NCBI GenBank assembly: GCA_951406725.2
Contig: OX597822.1
Location: 2,356,001 to 2,420,000 of the forward strand
DNA: 64,000 bases
Direction: 5' to 3'
Source: Octopus vulgaris
Taxonomy: Eukaryota
The position numbers and the translations under genes were made by a program. The notes beneath the pieces are model-generated. The model saw only the letters and a program-made list of their open reading frames with translations. It made no database searches and had not been told where the DNA came from. Shown here one piece after another: positions 6,830 to 63,707 of the stretch. The stretch's first letter is position 1. Each line of letters begins with the position of its first letter.

Positions 6830-7520
6830 TGTATATAACCAGCTAGAAACGATGTTTCTAGAGGCTAAATAACTAACCTTCTGTTTCCTGGGACTGCCCT
6901 GCCACCTTATGTTGTCAAGAAGCCATCACTTTATCATGCTGTTACTGCATATCTTTGAAATCTTTGAAGGATTTAAAACTGTAATATTTCTATCTTTGTA
7001 GATCAACGAATGTTTTTCATTTTGAATCCTATAAGTCTTCGACCGCGGATTACCAATGACATCTAGCAAAGCTGAGCTACTCCACGCTGATAAAGGCAAT
7101 AACCCTGAAACTAGTCCGCGGATGCTAGTTTGTGTCGTATAACCAGCTAGAAACCATGTTTCTTTGGGCTAAATAGCAGTATCGTTCCTCTCTTTCCTGG
7201 GACTGCTTCATTATGTTGGCAACAAGCCTACACTTTATCTCTCTTTGAGATATTTAGAAATGTAATATTTCTAGTTTTGTAGATCAGTGAGTGTTTTTCA
7301 CTTCGAATTCTATAAGCGGATTAGCAACGACATCTAGCAAAGCCAAGCTACTCCAATCTGATAAAGGGCAATGACCCTGAAACTAATCCGTAGATGCTAG
7401 GTTTTGCAGGGTGGATGTAAGATTCCGCCCTTTCATGGTGCTGCCACTTTATGTTGGCAACAAACCATCACTTTATCGTTCTGATACTGCGTTTCTCTCT
7501 TTGAGAGATTTAGAATTGAA
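6830..7520 (+). repeat. Diverged tandem repeat (~270-305 bp unit, about 2.3 copies), each full unit carrying an HHR-like motif; retrozyme-like
   Basis: TATAACCAGCTAGAAAC at ~6834 and ~7138; GACATCTAGCAAAGC..AGCTACTCCA..CTGATAA at ~7058 and ~7329; partial third unit ~7440-7520. Confidence 0.85.
7063..7128 (+). ncRNA. Minimal type I hammerhead-like motif with a variant core (CUGAUAA)
   Basis: CTAGCA..TCCACG-CTGATAA-AGG..CCT-GAAAC-TA-GTC-CGCGGA-TGCTAG: extended stem I, palindromic ACUAGU stem III, GUC triplet. Confidence 0.65.
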
Positions 7521-8299
7521 ATATATATATATATATATATATATATATATATATATATATATATATATATATGTGTGTGTGTGTGTGTGTGTGTGTGTGT
7601 GTATGTGTGTGCTCGCATGGCTTTTGCATTTGTTGTGCAAGATTCTTCATTACGAATGGATTGAAGCAAGTCTTTCATCGTCAGCTCATCATTGGCGAGA
7701 TCGTAAATAACGTCGAAAGAAATCTGACAAACCAAATGACAGATTGAATTATCAATATATTCTTGACTAGTTAATTGGTTAATTGGATAATTTATTAATA
7801 ATATTCACAACAACAAAAATACACGTTTTGTCTTGGTGTAAAAGATGATCTACATCAAACATTCTGCTCAATACCACAGATTTTCTTGTCAGTTGCTTGA
7901 CCTTAACTATCTGAGCCTTCCCCTCAGTGGCTGATAATATGTGCGCCTCTGACCACGAGCAAGAGTAGAGGGGGAACGTTGTAGCCGTGAGCTGAAAGGA
8001 ATTCTTCGGTGTTTGAACAATGGGTGTTTCGTTCATCATCCTTTAACAAATTTATTCCGGGTCTCTTTTGTAGGAGATTGGCAACATGACCCGAAAAAAG
8101 TTTTGAGTGGTCCCGACCTGCAAAGTCACGTGCTGTTTGACTTGATATGAGATCACCATAAGGTAACACATATGGCTGTGATACATGTGTCTGGTGTACC
8201 TTTATCGGACAAGTAGTCAAAATGTGTATACTGGTCTTCACGTGATGGATCGTGTGGGTCTCTGAAACAAAAACAACAGCAGCAGCAACAACAACAACA

Positions 8300-8505
8300 A
8301 TAAAGGCACAATGCTTGCAATTTTGGGGGAGGGGACCAGTCGATTACATCGACCCCAGTGTTTCAATGGTGCTTAATTTACTGACCCCAAGTGGACCTCG
8401 ACAGCCAATTGGACCTCGACGTTATTTGAACTTATAACGTAACGACAGGCGAAATACCGCTAAGCATTGAGCCCGTACTAAAGATTCTACCAGCTCAACT
8501 CCTTG
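8300..8505 (-). mobile_element. SINE family M, diverged
   Basis: GTCGATTACATCGACCCCAGT and CGAAATACCGCTAAGCATT are reverse complements of family M segments. Confidence 0.75.
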
Positions 8506-10559
8506 ATAAAAATAATAATAATAATAATATTAATAATAATAATAATAATAATAATAATAATAATAATAATAATATTAATAATAATAATAATAATAATAAT
8601 CAGAGAAGACAATATTAGGACCCCTCGTCCTTATAGTAATAATATAATTATAGTAATATCTGTGGAACTATAGTAGTGAACAAGTAAATAATAAGATAGG
8701 GATTATGGTAGTAATACGGAAATTAGTGAAGAACAATTATCCAGAATGATAAGTGGCGTTGTGAAACCGTCGAGTCATCGGCGATTAAACTACAACAGGA
8801 CCATATGTATATATATATATATATATATATATATATATATATATATATATATACATACATATATACATGCACACTTGTATATACAAATAAAGAGCGGAAG
8901 AAAGAGATGGGGTCTCAATAACAACTCTCGTGGGAACCCCACGAACGACACACGAAAGAATTAACGGCGAGAAGGAAACTCCATTCTCGCGGGGATTGTA
9001 CCTTTCCGAATACACTCATTAAATTGAACTGCTAGTCTTTCATGCACCGCGTGGCATCTCTTCAGACAAAAGCCATAAATCCCATCCGATCCGGGGTGTT
9101 TCTAGCTAGGCTTGTTCTTTAGCCGATCATGGTGAAGGTTTCCCGCCCAGCACGTCCGAAACCACCCGCCTCAGGGGCAGTGATCTGCCCACGGACTGTC
9201 GTTATGTTACAATGTCTATATCCAACTTAACGTGTCTATATTGTTAATATGCTTAACGATGTGGTATTCCTCTTAAGAGGATCTCTTAAATGGAAATATG
9301 ATGTATAAAAAAATGAATATATTCTTATATCGTCTGATACAGGCGCCAGAAGTTCTCTAACGCGTGATTTCGACGTACACCGTTTCTTCAATGACAGGTG
9401 TCCGCCACTCGTATAGAGAAACGGAGTTCATCCAAATCACACGGTTTGTAGTTTCGGCACCTTAATCTCGTTTGGCAACGATATAAATTATGTGTGCTTT
9501 TACGCACAAGATATACGTGTGTGTGGAAAGAGACATCAATTCCTGCTAGATGGTTTTGGTATCCATCAAGAGAGCTTCTTTTTATAATATTTTTATTAAT
9601 AGTAATGATGATGGATGAAGAGGAATCATTTATACTGTTACCATTATTTCTGAATGTAGTTCCAAATTTACTAACGTGACTATTTTCTTTCGTCTTTCTT
9701 GCCTCCAAAACAAACAATGAAATTTAAAAGAACCCCTTCTCTCACTATCTCTCTCTCTCTTTCTCTCTCTCTCTCTATCTATCTATCTTTTTTCTTCCTC
9801 TTTGCTAAAAATGTTACAAAACAGAAGAAGGAAACGTTCTGTTTTATCGTTATTATTTTGATTTCAATTCTTATCTTCAAATTTTCGTTTACGCGAACGA
9901 AAGCGCTAATAGAGAATTATCCAAATTCCGACTGCTTCTCGATATACAATATTGTACAGCACCACTTCAAACAACCTATACATACATATCATATATACAT
10001 ACATACATACATACATACATACATACATACATACATATCATACATACATACATACATACATACATACATACATACATACATACATACATACATCATACAT
10101 AAATATAAGCAATTCAACAAAACAACATATTAATGTAAGAACAAATGGATCGTATATCACGTCTCTATTTTAAATTATTCCATAGAAAAAGATATATTGG
10201 TTAGCCATTCAGTTAAAATATGCATGCCTTCTCATCTATCCCTCAAACTTACATGACCGCCTTTGTCGAAGGTGGTCATTTATTTGCGTCTGTGACCCTA
10301 GGGTTGAACAAGGTTTTCGTATGAATAATGATAGTTGCTTATATATATATATATATATATATATATATAAATATATATATATATAAAACACCAAGTAAGT
10401 TAGGGGTTGTGGATCCAACCCGCTAAGGGATAATACTTATCCAATATACTGTTGGTATAATACCCAAATTATTAATACACAAGTGCTTTTAATCGCTATG
10501 CAATTAACTTACTTATTGTATTAAATGGGTCAAGGTAAAGAAATATTTTACGATTAATT

Positions 10560-61506: not shown

Positions 61507-61688
61507 AAGGGAAAGTTTACGAAAATAAACAAAAGACGAAGGCAAGTGGTGTACAAACGAACAGATGTATTAGTATAACGCTCAGGAATAGAAAAAGTCT
61601 TTTACGTTTCGAGCCTACGCTCTTCAACAAAAAGATACACAGAAAAACAAGGAGAGAAAAAATGTGTGTAGTAGCTAACGATCTATCA
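61507..61688 (-). mobile_element. (TA)n-inserted ~180-bp element with a minimal HHR-like motif
   Basis: Minus strand: TTT-TTGTTGA-A-GAGC(GTAG)GCTC-GAAAC-GTA-AAAG; same family as 25127-25320. Confidence 0.75.
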
Positions 61689-63613
61689 TATATATATATA
61701 TATAGATATAGATATACAAATACATTTTACATCTATACTTATATATATATAAGTATAGATGTAAAATGTATTTGTATATCAGTATGAACATATTCATTTG
61801 TACGTATGCATATTTTTGCATAAATCAAAATAAACTTGTAGAATTATATTTCGTGTGCGTATGTGTGTATATATATATATATTCATTTATTAATTTATAT
61901 GCATATATTATATTATATCATATTATATATATATATATAAGAGTGTATGTACGTATTTGTTCATTTCATATATATATATATATATATATATATATATTTA
62001 TATATACATGCATGCATATACATATATGATTGTATGTGTATATAACACCATAAAGGCGAAGAAGAAATAAAGTGATGATGTCTATAAAACTGAAGGTTGT
62101 GAAAGATTACAATAATGTCAGTACTTATGAAAAAGCGAGAACCCAATAAATCTATATTGCTTTGCTACTTTATTCATTTCTCGTTACTTGTTAATGGTCG
62201 ACATTTTATATATTGATTTTAGCGATCGATTTTTGGTTGGGTGCATAGGCGTTGGGTGAGGCACATGTGAAGAAATATTTTTTGTGGTTTATTTTTGTAG
62301 ATTTTGTTTTGTGAATTTTTTTTTGTTCTCTACTTCTTAACAATTCATGTTATTGTTCTGATGACTATTAGCTGATTGTTTTAAGTGTAGCGATGGACGT
62401 TGCGATGGAGAGCCCGGTGGAGATTGGTAGCGACGCCGATGACTATAAGGAAAACGATGCGGATGCTGCGCTAGTAATGCACATATGTACTCTGTGCGTG
62501 TGTGTGAGTGTGTGTGCGTGTGTGTAAAGAAATATTATGTGTGTTTAGTATACAGATGCAGGTGCACGTATAGACATAGAAGGATACATAAGTCTGTAAG
62601 TGCATACATGCATATATATATATAAGGAGATGCGGAAATATATATATATATATATGTATATATGCAGAGTGAGAAAGAGGGGAGTGAGAGTGAGAGAGAG
62701 AGACAGAGACAGAGACAGACAGAGAAGAGAAACAGACAGAAATAGAAATAATAATAATAATAATAATAATAATAATAATAATAATAATAATAATGCGGAG
62801 GAGAAGGGGAATGAGGAGAAGGAGGAAGAAGAAGCAGGAGGTGGAGGAGGAGGAGGAAAAAATGCAGCGGAGGTGAAGAAGAATGGTAAATGGCATGCGA
62901 GTGTGGGAGTTGTTAAGAATGACTGTGCTGGAAAGAATGGATCCAAGTTAAGGAACAAAGGTCAAATTCGTTATATATTAGAAGAAACAATAACTATCTT
63001 GAGAAAGCAATTGTGCTATCGGTTTTTGCGGCCTAAAAGTGGCAGAAGGAAAGAGAAATTGGGTCGCACGTGGAGATTGACGACATCATAGGTGAAGTAG
63101 AGAGAATGAATGTATGAAATAAATGAAAGTATTTGAAGATAAAAAACAAAGCAAAATTAAGGGATATTATATATATATATGAAAGTTTAGCAAAATTTAG
63201 ATTCAGATGAATATGGTACTTAAGTCAAAGGCACCAGAATTTTGTATGGTATTACCCATATAAATCAAATGGGGGGATTATAATCAAAATAAGCAACAAG
63301 TATATCCAAGGTAGAGTAGTACAATTGTTTCATGCTACTTCATTTTATTAAACACTCTAAGAATTACATCAGTTTTAAAATGTCGAGCAATCTTCACCCA
63401 CTTATAGAATTTTTCACTCAAACGGACAATGCACATTCTTATCTCTATTTCATCTGCCAACATTATAATGAGGGTAGATATATAGACAGAGAGGTTGATT
63501 TCATCATTAAGAACATGGCGGTAGTATGTTCATTCTCCGTCTGTAGATTTTATCATTGAGTTCACTTTGTTATTTAGTTCTATCAGTGGGGAAGGGGTTT
63601 TATGTTTGGTTGG

Positions 63614-63707
63614 ATGGAGACAAAGAATTTTTTCTATTTATAGATATAGGAAGGGGTAGTACTACCCCTTCCTATATCTATAAATAGAAAAAATTCTTTG
63701 TCTCCAT
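63614..63707. repeat. Perfect 94-bp spacer-less palindrome
   Basis: 63614-63660 is the exact reverse complement of 63661-63707; centre GTAGT|ACTAC. Confidence 0.95.

What the first reader, a model, noticed from the sequence alone, without database searches (positions are those of the whole stretch)
6830..63707. Window-wide pattern: an ecosystem of (TA)n-targeted, HHR-associated, ORF-less fold-back and tandem elements
Seen: about nine largely sequence-unrelated fold-backs (10560, 10897, 11119, 16232, 16457, 30822, 43098, 60309, 63614), two tandem elements and at least five different HHR-like families in 64 kb, mostly bounded by (TA)n and often asymmetric. Established: Penelope-like elements carry terminal HHRs, form inverted termini, and include microsatellite-targeting clades. 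Inference: a large, under-annotated source of ribozymes and dsRNA in this genome, fed by SINE-borne and element-borne microsatellites.
Basis: partly seen in the sequence, partly recalled or inferred. Interest (0 to 1): 0.7.

Follow-up and report, generated by a model that had tools for sequence, protein, structure and literature searches.

The report
Penelope-type fold-backs at (TA)n repeats
This repeat-rich animal DNA holds nine real hairpin-shaped repeats, eight touching a (TA)n tract at one end, plus several hammerhead-ribozyme motifs, and these are likely the non-coding ends of known Penelope-like retrotransposons, with one insert starting exactly at a predicted ribozyme cut site.

Summary
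All nine fold-backs and both tandem elements exist. Eight of nine fold-backs touch (TA)n at one end and none at both ends; 9 of 38 dispersed repeats touch one. Hammerhead (HHR) motifs exceed chance: 6 observed against 0.15 in shuffles. Only 2 of the 9 fold-backs (16457, 60309) carry a supported HHR; a third (63614) lies upstream of one. The other HHRs sit in solo or tandem inserts.

The anatomy (head-to-head arms, a tail on one side, HHRs pointing at the (TA)n) matches the known inverted 5'-truncated copies of (TA)n-targeting Penelope-like elements. Such families (Hydra, Naiad) are already described in Octopus, the likely but untested source. No Penelope coding remnant was confirmed, so membership is inferred. 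The 43098 fold-back looks more like a local DNA duplication.

Two details stand out. The direct repeat of the 23078-23807 element begins exactly at the predicted self-cleavage bond, suggesting a cleaved RNA template. Fold-backs supply 26 of 27 non-microsatellite windows able to form near-perfect dsRNA. Transcription, cleavage and editing are untested.

The parts
6204..6270 (+). Type I minimal HHR, intact core, palindromic helix III; cut site 154 nt upstream of (TA)n (just outside the finding)
   Evidence: score 18.4
6506..6574 (+). Type I HHR, intact core, second family (just outside the finding)
   Evidence: score 18.0
6828..7520 (+). Old tandem, about 2.3 units of about 300 nt (72% identical), HHR motif with A at core position 8 at 7087 and 7358; ends at (TA)n; retrozyme-like
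9022..9075 (-). HHR motif with intact core and weak stems, 180 nt upstream of (TA)n
   Evidence: score 11.8, 0 of 40 shuffles
10386..10739 (.). Fold-back A (arms 10557-10640 / 10656-10739) with a 172-nt run-on to the left; (TA)n on both sides of the whole; no supported HHR
10778..11022 (.). Fold-back B (arms 10895-10946 / 10982-11022) with left run-on shared with C
11060..11253 (.). Fold-back C (arms 11120-11148 / 11224-11253), related to B, complex spacer
16151..16368 (.). Fold-back D (core arms 16232-16275 / 16313-16356) with about 80-nt left run-on; no supported HHR; 5-bp repeat at both junctions of the left arm
16457..19297 (.). Fold-back E, 2.8 kb, arms 16457-17230 / 18438-19216, microsatellite-rich body, about 80-nt tail on the right; intact Hydra-type HHR in each arm (core 16518 minus, 19155 plus), both pointing outward
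   Evidence: HHR style compared by eye with File S2 of PMC8557442
21478..21554 (.). About 78-bp insert inside the internal microsatellite of a SINE
   Evidence: SINE halves collinear around it
23078..23807 (-). Partial tandem R-U-R between two (TA)n tracts: 482-nt unit, R copies differ at 3 of 232 positions; HHR motif (U at core position 3) 23373-23326; identity of R stops exactly at the predicted scissile bond
24140..24878 (.). About 740-bp insert inside a SINE-borne microsatellite; holds an inverted-junction copy of family F5 (24553-24650) and a degenerate HHR-like motif near 24688-24728
25126..25320 (+). About 190-bp element between microsatellite tracts; second copy at 61507-61687 (minus), 84% identical, with an HHR motif (two core changes) at 61630-61603
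29851..30010 (-). Solo copy of family G ending at (TA)n
   Evidence: 75-80% identity to both arms of G
30783..31136 (.). Fold-back G, old (108/129); HHR-like fragments in spacer seen by eye only
34176..34232 (-). HHR core with 5-bp helix II and palindromic helix III but no helix I; 42 nt upstream of (TA)n
43098..44014 (.). Fold-back H (arms 255/258, 400-nt spacer); no HHR; right arm flanked by a 6-bp direct repeat; likely a local inverted duplication
54371..54486 (.). Family F5 copy: inversion without long duplication, 35-nt one-sided tail, 8-nt repeat on both flanks; not at (TA)n
60155..60608 (.). Fold-back I (arms 60305-60433 / 60478-60608) with 155-nt left run-on; HHR 60475-60548 (plus, one core change) whose helix I starts in the spacer; left copy breaks off inside the core
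63181..63707 (-). Likely one insert between two (TA)n tracts: perfect 94-nt palindrome J (63614-63707) upstream of an HHR motif (63397-63320, one core change)
   Evidence: continuity is inferred

Best explanation
Most of these fold-backs and both tandems are likely aborted or non-autonomous insertions of (TA)n-targeting Penelope-like retroelements, in which only the non-coding, ribozyme-bearing end was copied. Shown: the arms, the one-sided (TA)n contact, the run-on beyond the other arm, HHR motifs that read outward toward a nearby (TA)n, chains of inserts separated by (TA)n, and inserts inside SINE-borne microsatellites. Inferred mechanism: an element-encoded GIY-YIG/RT dimer supplied in trans nicks both strands of a (TA)n tract. 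Each DNA end primes reverse transcription, one near the RNA 3' end (giving the arm with the tail) and one at an internal, often TA-rich, site (giving the arm that meets the (TA)n). Both cDNAs stop after 30-770 nt and are joined head to head; the longer copy supplies the unpaired spacer. Copying an oligomeric or ribozyme-cut RNA gives the tandems. Each insert leaves (TA)n at its sides, and some carry microsatellites inside, which would supply the next targets. About one or two fold-backs (43098, perhaps 16232) likely arose by DNA template switching instead.
For: (TA)n at exactly one arm end in 8 of 9. For the 8 independent HHR loci scoring >=10, the median distance from cut site to the next downstream (TA)n is 167 nt against 738 nt for random sites (p=0.001). 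In E both HHRs point outward and the monomer folds into three helices; its core has the U...U flanks of helix II and an ACAG/CUGU helix III seen in Hydra-clade HHRs. The spacer follows the tail-less arm in E (base skew), I (helix I lies in the spacer) and G (collinear with the solo copy). B and C share a run-on that continues into the arm, so the run-on belongs to the element there. Two F5 copies break at the same internal site and one has a 35-nt tail, the size published for PLE tails. Five of 8 TA-side junctions share >=4 nt of alternating TA (background 11-28%). Literature: inverted 5'-truncated copies, one-sided tail and (TA)n bias (PMC8557442); both-strand cleavage and two internal RT start sites in vitro (PMC11167929); paired opposite-strand HHRs 100-700 bp apart (PMC4209133).
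Against: No PLE reverse transcriptase or GIY-YIG match was found in the window. Seven of 9 fold-backs lack a supported HHR. Run-ons are 60-430 nt, longer than the published 30-40 nt tail. H has a 6-bp direct repeat around one arm (nominal P=0.026, not significant over 9 tests) and D a 5-bp one. C's spacer does not clearly follow the rule, and the B spacer match to C was not significant (14 of 200 shuffles). TA microhomology is at odds with the homology-free initiation seen for the anole element. Mariner-like elements touch (TA)n too, and 2 of 3 unnamed fold-backs do not. Most families have a single copy in the window.
Confidence: 0.68

Rival explanations
1. The fold-backs are DNA-level inverted duplications made when replication or repair switches template at a fragile (TA)n tract, copying whatever lay beside it, often an older PLE end.
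For: One-sided (TA)n contact is also predicted. H has a 6-bp direct repeat around the distal arm and D a 5-bp repeat at both junctions. Seven of 9 lack a supported HHR. M is centred on a TA run.
Against: Seven of 9 show no junction repeat beyond chance. In B/C the run-on is collinear with the arm, and in G the sequence left of the arm is not what lies upstream in the solo copy. It does not explain the tandems or the F5 junctions.
Confidence: 0.2
2. They are microsatellite-targeting MITEs or Mutator-like elements, as in plant SaTar/MuTAnT arrays, with the arms as terminal inverted repeats.
For: Several are bounded by TA at both outer ends; unrelated elements form chains separated by (TA)n, as described for SaTar arrays (PMC5907723, abstract); real TIR elements in the window also touch (TA)n.
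Against: Arms run from 29 to 770 nt with no shared termini; family G occurs as a solo one-directional copy; I breaks off inside the HHR core in one arm only; E and I carry ribozymes; (TA)n touches one arm only.
Confidence: 0.08
3. The near-identical long fold-backs (E, H) are long-read or assembly artefacts.
For: E's arms differ almost only by short indels in homopolymers and microsatellites (4 substitutions, 14 gaps).
Against: E has a 1.2-kb spacer and resumes in unique sequence; six other fold-backs have arms 84-97% identical, and none reaches a contig end.
Confidence: 0.04

Closest known systems
Hydra-clade Penelope-like elements (Hydra-1_Obim, Penelope-13_HM; Craig et al. 2021, PMC8557442)
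   Same: (TA)n preference, canonical type I HHR near the 3' end with unpaired bases flanking helix II, 5'-truncated inverted copy giving HHRs on both strands.
   Different: Those are 2-3 kb coding consensus elements. The inserts here are 0.1-2.8 kb with no detectable ORF, longer one-sided run-ons, and no sequence identity to a named family was tested.
Naiad elements of Octopus (Naiad_Obim, Naiad_Ovul; PMC8557442 File S1)
   Same: (TA)n preference; half-core motifs without a full HHR, resembling by eye family G and the 5537-5760 insert.
   Different: No alignment to Naiad was run; described as old remnants, whereas E and the 23078 element are young.
Poseidon PAc of Anolis (Frangieh et al. 2024, PMC11167929)
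   Same: Cuts and extends both strands at AT-rich DNA; two internal RT start sites define a one-sided tail, as family F5 suggests here.
   Different: PAc uses uncut RNA in vitro and no reads ended at its HHR site; here the 23078-23807 element starts at the predicted cut site.
Metazoan non-LTR retrozymes (PMC7229834; bioRxiv 10.64898/2026.07.22.740005)
   Same: Non-coding AT-rich tandem units with a type I HHR; the 6828 unit (about 300 nt) is in the usual size range.
   Different: Both tandems here have altered cores, only 2.3 and 1.5 units, and sit in (TA)n; the 482-nt unit is longer than the 170-400 nt quoted for invertebrates.
SaTar / MuTAnT microsatellite-targeting MULEs (PMC5907723, PMC4486113)
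   Same: Chains of unrelated small elements separated by (TA)n.
   Different: Plant DNA transposons with fixed termini and no ribozymes.

Membership tests
EN+ Penelope-like elements (Hydra/Naiad/Poseidon) | RT plus GIY-YIG ORF, or homology to the pLTR of such an element | tested here: inconclusive
   No PLE domain by Pfam or protein search; ORF-less derivatives would not have one; no eukaryotic genome or repeat library could be aligned.
EN+ Penelope-like elements (Hydra/Naiad/Poseidon) | Type I HHR near the 3' end, sense strand reading toward the terminus | tested here: met
   Met for E, I, both tandems and several solo inserts; not met for A, B, C, D, G, H or the J arms.
EN+ Penelope-like elements (Hydra/Naiad/Poseidon) | Inverted 5'-truncated copy joined head to head | tested here: met
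   E, I, G orientable and head to head; others cannot be oriented firmly.
EN+ Penelope-like elements (Hydra/Naiad/Poseidon) | 30-40 bp tail at one end only | tested here: inconclusive
   35 nt in F5; one-sided but 60-430 nt in the named fold-backs, and shown to be element sequence only for B/C.
EN+ Penelope-like elements (Hydra/Naiad/Poseidon) | (TA)n insertion preference (Hydra, Naiad, Neptune) | tested here: met
   8 of 9; inserts inside SINE microsatellites in 2 of 5 copies.
Non-LTR retrozymes | At least two consecutive tandem units each with a complete HHR | tested here: not met
   6828 tandem: both cores have A at position 8; 23078 element holds one HHR, with U at position 3.
Non-LTR retrozymes | Non-coding AT-rich tandem unit of a few hundred nt | tested here: met
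   About 300 and 482 nt, no Pfam match in their ORFs.
Non-LTR retrozymes | Self-cleavage and circular RNA accumulation | not testable with these tools
   Needs transcription assays or RNA data.
MITEs / Mutator-like SaTar elements | Fixed-length TIRs at both termini in every copy | tested here: not met
   Family G has a solo copy; B and C have different arms on a shared run-on; I is truncated in one arm.
MITEs / Mutator-like SaTar elements | Constant target-site duplication | tested here: inconclusive
   TA flanks cannot be told from microhomology; a 6-bp repeat surrounds one arm of H only.
Type I hammerhead ribozyme | Intact core with helices I, II, III | tested here: met
   Met at 6213, 6515, 16518, 19155; weak stems at 9065; one or two core changes or a missing helix elsewhere.
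Type I hammerhead ribozyme | Self-cleavage activity | not testable with these tools
   Published PLE minimal HHRs cleave poorly or need protein (PMC4209133, PMC11167929).

The most novel reading that the evidence does not exclude
Two-ended priming by (TA)n-targeting Penelope machinery mass-produces self-pairing hairpin inserts that are the unexplained source of the octopus genome's excess of near-perfect dsRNA and hyper-editing, and some inserts (23078-23807) are copied from ribozyme-cut RNA, giving a genomic footprint of what the PLE hammerhead does in vivo.
Probability: 0.25. Interest if true: 0.72.

Novelty: new member of a known kind. Interest (0 to 1): 0.42.

Why it matters
The role of the hammerhead in Penelope-like elements is open: in vitro the anole element does not need cleavage and no RNA ends were found at the site (PMC11167929). 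An insert whose 5' end sits on the scissile bond, if repeated genome-wide, would show that cut RNA is a real template. Separately, Octopus bimaculoides has an exceptionally high share of loci able to form long dsRNA, and in the passages read the responsible repeat was named for frog but not for octopus (PMC5625713). In this window fold-backs give 55 of 84 qualifying 50-nt windows. If the window is octopus and typical, these short unannotated inserts are a testable candidate. If not, this is ordinary debris of known elements.

Tried and rejected
Rfam at gathering score: 0 hits. At E<=10 the 150 listed of 404 hits were almost all microsatellite or hairpin matches to miRNA models; 254 were not shown.

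PLE coding remnants: two regions looked PLE-like by eye (13570-14345 and 29110-29600, minus). They gave no hit in Pfam, 0 in 1.84 billion representatives for one frame, none at E<=1 among longer proteins for one frame, and only chance PDB matches. Pfam covered six frames of 49100-64000 except the microsatellite gaps, nine selected regions, and 150 of 190 ORFs of >=52 aa in 1-49200; only Tc1 and LINE domains appeared.

Independent family copies: two scans of prokaryotic genome contigs gave 0 and 1 match; the match (L001) is a 21-nt chance hit in a bacterial gene. Metagenome and viral collections stayed unchecked, and no eukaryotic genome collection exists here.

Organism: the LINE RT search returned 54 unnamed proteins and SINE motifs found no paper. 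'Octopus' rests on my recall of its SINEs and microsatellite load.

A general target-site duplication around the distal arm was rejected for 7 of 9. Similarity among the run-ons of A, D, E and I was not significant. The 5' end of the 6828 tandem lies 0 or about 14 nt from the predicted cut depending on register, so it was not counted as a second coincidence. Folding z-scores of single HHR motifs were mostly unremarkable (1 of 12 below -2). No paper describing these octopus fold-backs came up; most subscription papers and Repbase are not searchable.

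
Full report
SETTING. The window is about 35% GC, with 9,539 of 64,000 bases masked as short tandem repeat. It is full of SINE-like repeats, Tc1 remnants, two mariner-like TIR elements and LINE reverse-transcriptase remnants. I read it as an octopus genome from recall of its repeats. No tool confirmed this, and statements about octopus depend on it.

THE FOLD-BACKS ARE REAL. All nine named structures align as inverted arms: A 10557-10739 (78/84), B 10895-11022, C 11120-11253 (28/29), D 16220-16368 (51/56), E 16457-19216 (760/764), G 30783-31136 (108/129), H 43098-44014 (255/258), I 60305-60608 (125/129), J 63614-63707 (47/47). 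A seed census found 15 inverted clusters against 1-2 in each of 10 shuffles; four are inverted pairs of dispersed repeats and one is a mariner-like element. Both tandems are present.

(TA)n CONTACT IS ONE-SIDED. Eight of nine have (TA)>=4 within 10 nt of one outer end and none at both ends. Random expectation is 4.7%, and 9 of 38 dispersed repeats have such an end (Fisher p=5.5e-4; 9 of 12, p=0.004, with K, L, M added). Beyond the other arm the sequence runs on for 60-510 nt before the next TA tract. Inserts form chains such as (TA)n-A-(TA)n-B-(TA)-C-(TA) and D-(TA)n-E. One SINE family carries an internal microsatellite; 2 of its 5 full copies have foreign DNA inside it (about 78 bp at 21478, about 740 bp at 24140). 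The association is not class-specific, since both mariner-like elements also touch (TA)n.

HAMMERHEADS ARE REAL BUT MOSTLY NOT IN THE FOLD-BACKS. Rfam finds none. A type I descriptor finds 6 hits at score >=12 against 0.15 in 60 shuffles; I widened it after reading the Hydra HHR table, and the shuffles used the same rules. Intact cores with three helices occur at 6213, 6515 and in both arms of E. Motifs with one defect occur at 60475, 7087/7358, 9065, 63397, 23373 and 34221, and one with two core changes at 61630. In a per-region test only E and I among the nine beat their shuffles; both tandems did too. For the 8 independent loci scoring >=10, the next (TA)n downstream of the cut site is a median 167 nt away against 738 nt for random sites (p=0.001). 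The real association is therefore HHR to (TA)n and fold-back to (TA)n, with a smaller direct overlap.

ANATOMY. In E both ribozymes read outward. The motif has unpaired U residues flanking helix II and an ACAG/CUGU helix III, as in Hydra-clade HHRs listed in File S2 of PMC8557442 (by eye), and the monomer folds into three helices. E's 1.2-kb spacer has the C-rich strand polarity of the arm that touches (TA)n. In I, helix I begins in the spacer and continues into the (TA)n-side arm, while the other arm breaks off inside the core. In G the spacer is collinear with the (TA)n-side arm and with a solo copy at 29851-30010. So in the three clear cases the tail-less copy is the longer one. B and C share a run-on that continues into the arm. 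Family F5 (24553-24650, 54371-54486) shows inversions without long duplication; both copies break at the same internal site and one keeps a 35-nt tail. J is a perfect palindrome about 220 nt upstream of an HHR motif and is likely the 5' end of one insert. H differs: no HHR, and a 6-bp direct repeat surrounds the arm away from the (TA)n (nominal P=0.026 among 9 tests); D has a 5-bp repeat at both junctions.

THE 23078-23807 ELEMENT. On the minus strand it reads (TA)n, R, U, R, (TA)n, with a 482-nt unit and 3 differences in 232 nt between the R copies. The HHR motif ends at the U/R border. Identity between the copies stops at 23325/23807 with no extension, which is the first base after the predicted scissile bond; one base of this could belong to the (TA)n. 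Chance is about 3 in 482 for one element, about 1% for the two tandems examined. Against this, the core has U at position 3, helix I is weak, and n is 1. The 6828 tandem is ambiguous (0 or about 14 nt off, depending on register).

MECHANISM. Shown: the geometry above. From the literature: PLEs leave inverted 5'-truncated copies with a one-sided tail, and Hydra and Naiad families, including those of Octopus, prefer (TA)n (PMC8557442; passages and supplement files S1, S2). The anole PLE protein cuts and extends both strands and starts at two internal RNA sites (PMC11167929; parts 1-3 of 4). Opposite-strand HHR pairs 100-700 bp apart were noted in Schistosoma (PMC4209133; parts 1-2 of 4), and palindromic inverted junctions in rotifer PLEs (PMC3846280; passages). 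Inferred: both ends of a cut (TA)n prime cDNA, one near the RNA end and one internally; both abort and are joined head to head; oligomeric or ribozyme-cut RNAs give the tandems. Five of 8 TA-side junctions share >=4 nt of alternating TA (the script mis-registered I, which I took), against a background of 11-28%, so microhomology priming has modest support. I put this model at 0.68 for most structures, DNA template switching at 0.2 (likely for H), MITEs at 0.08 and artefact at 0.04.

LIMITS. No PLE coding sequence was confirmed. No independent copies could be fetched. Membership is therefore inferred from architecture and ribozyme style. The tandems work like non-LTR retrozymes (PMC7229834, passages and discussion; bioRxiv 10.64898/2026.07.22.740005, parts 1-3 of 5) but fail the two-complete-HHR criterion. 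The O. vulgaris repeat annotation (PMC13282606, parts 1-2 of 3) lists 31 recently active Penelope-like families and does not discuss ribozymes or fold-backs in those parts; its supplement was not read and its library may already hold these families. SaTar elements were seen in abstract only (PMC5907723) and MuTAnT in a search listing.

dsRNA POTENTIAL. Using a rule modelled on PMC5625713 (passages), 84 of 2,558 50-nt windows (3.3%) have a near-perfect inverted partner within 2 kb. Fifty-five lie in fold-backs, including 26 of 27 non-microsatellite windows; E and H give 47 of the 55. The published genome-wide value for O. bimaculoides is 0.44%, with different BLAST settings and assembly. This is potential only; no expression or editing data were available, and H may not be PLE-derived.

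VERDICT. Observation partly confirmed, interpretation partly supported. This is a dense example of a known phenomenon, with two leads worth a genome-wide test: 5' ends at ribozyme cut sites, and fold-backs as the octopus dsRNA source. Novelty: new member of a known kind. Interest 0.42.

Noticed in passing
   Followed up: partly
window 7087, 7358 (plus), 25693 (minus), near 10689 (plus): The core variant with A at position 8 (C3.A8 mismatch) recurs in unrelated inserts. A-to-I editing there would restore the pair; this is speculation and untested.
   Followed up: no
window 24553-24650 and 54371-54486: Two copies of one family with twin-priming-like inversions and a shared internal break; the second has an 8-nt repeat on both flanks and is not in (TA)n.
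   Followed up: partly
window 22461-23030 and 30483-30775: Mariner-like TIR elements, each touching a TA tract at one end; the first has a transposase-like C-terminal remnant by eye (no Pfam hit).
   Followed up: partly
window 4620-5100 and 15130-16120 (minus): Broken Tc1 transposase remnants (HTH_Tnp_Tc3_2, DDE_3).
   Followed up: yes
window 56600-58480 and 59000-60085 (minus): Broken LINE reverse transcriptases (RVT_1, zf-RVT); the first ends at a (GATA)n array and a related end occurs at 34002-34092.
   Followed up: partly
window 13570-14345 and 29110-29600 (minus): Possible decayed PLE coding fragments by eye; no database support.
   Followed up: yes
window 27322-27710 and 28719-29108: 390-bp direct duplication, 95% identical, about 1 kb apart, containing a SINE-like repeat.
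   Followed up: no
window 5537-5760 (minus), 29851-30010 (minus), 30915-31000 (plus): GAAA box followed about 30 nt later by a CUGAUGA-like box, an order also seen by eye at the 3' end of the published Naiad_Obim consensus; not a canonical HHR.
   Followed up: partly
window 63740-64000: Start of another likely DNA transposon right after the (TA)n beside fold-back J, by eye only.
   Followed up: no
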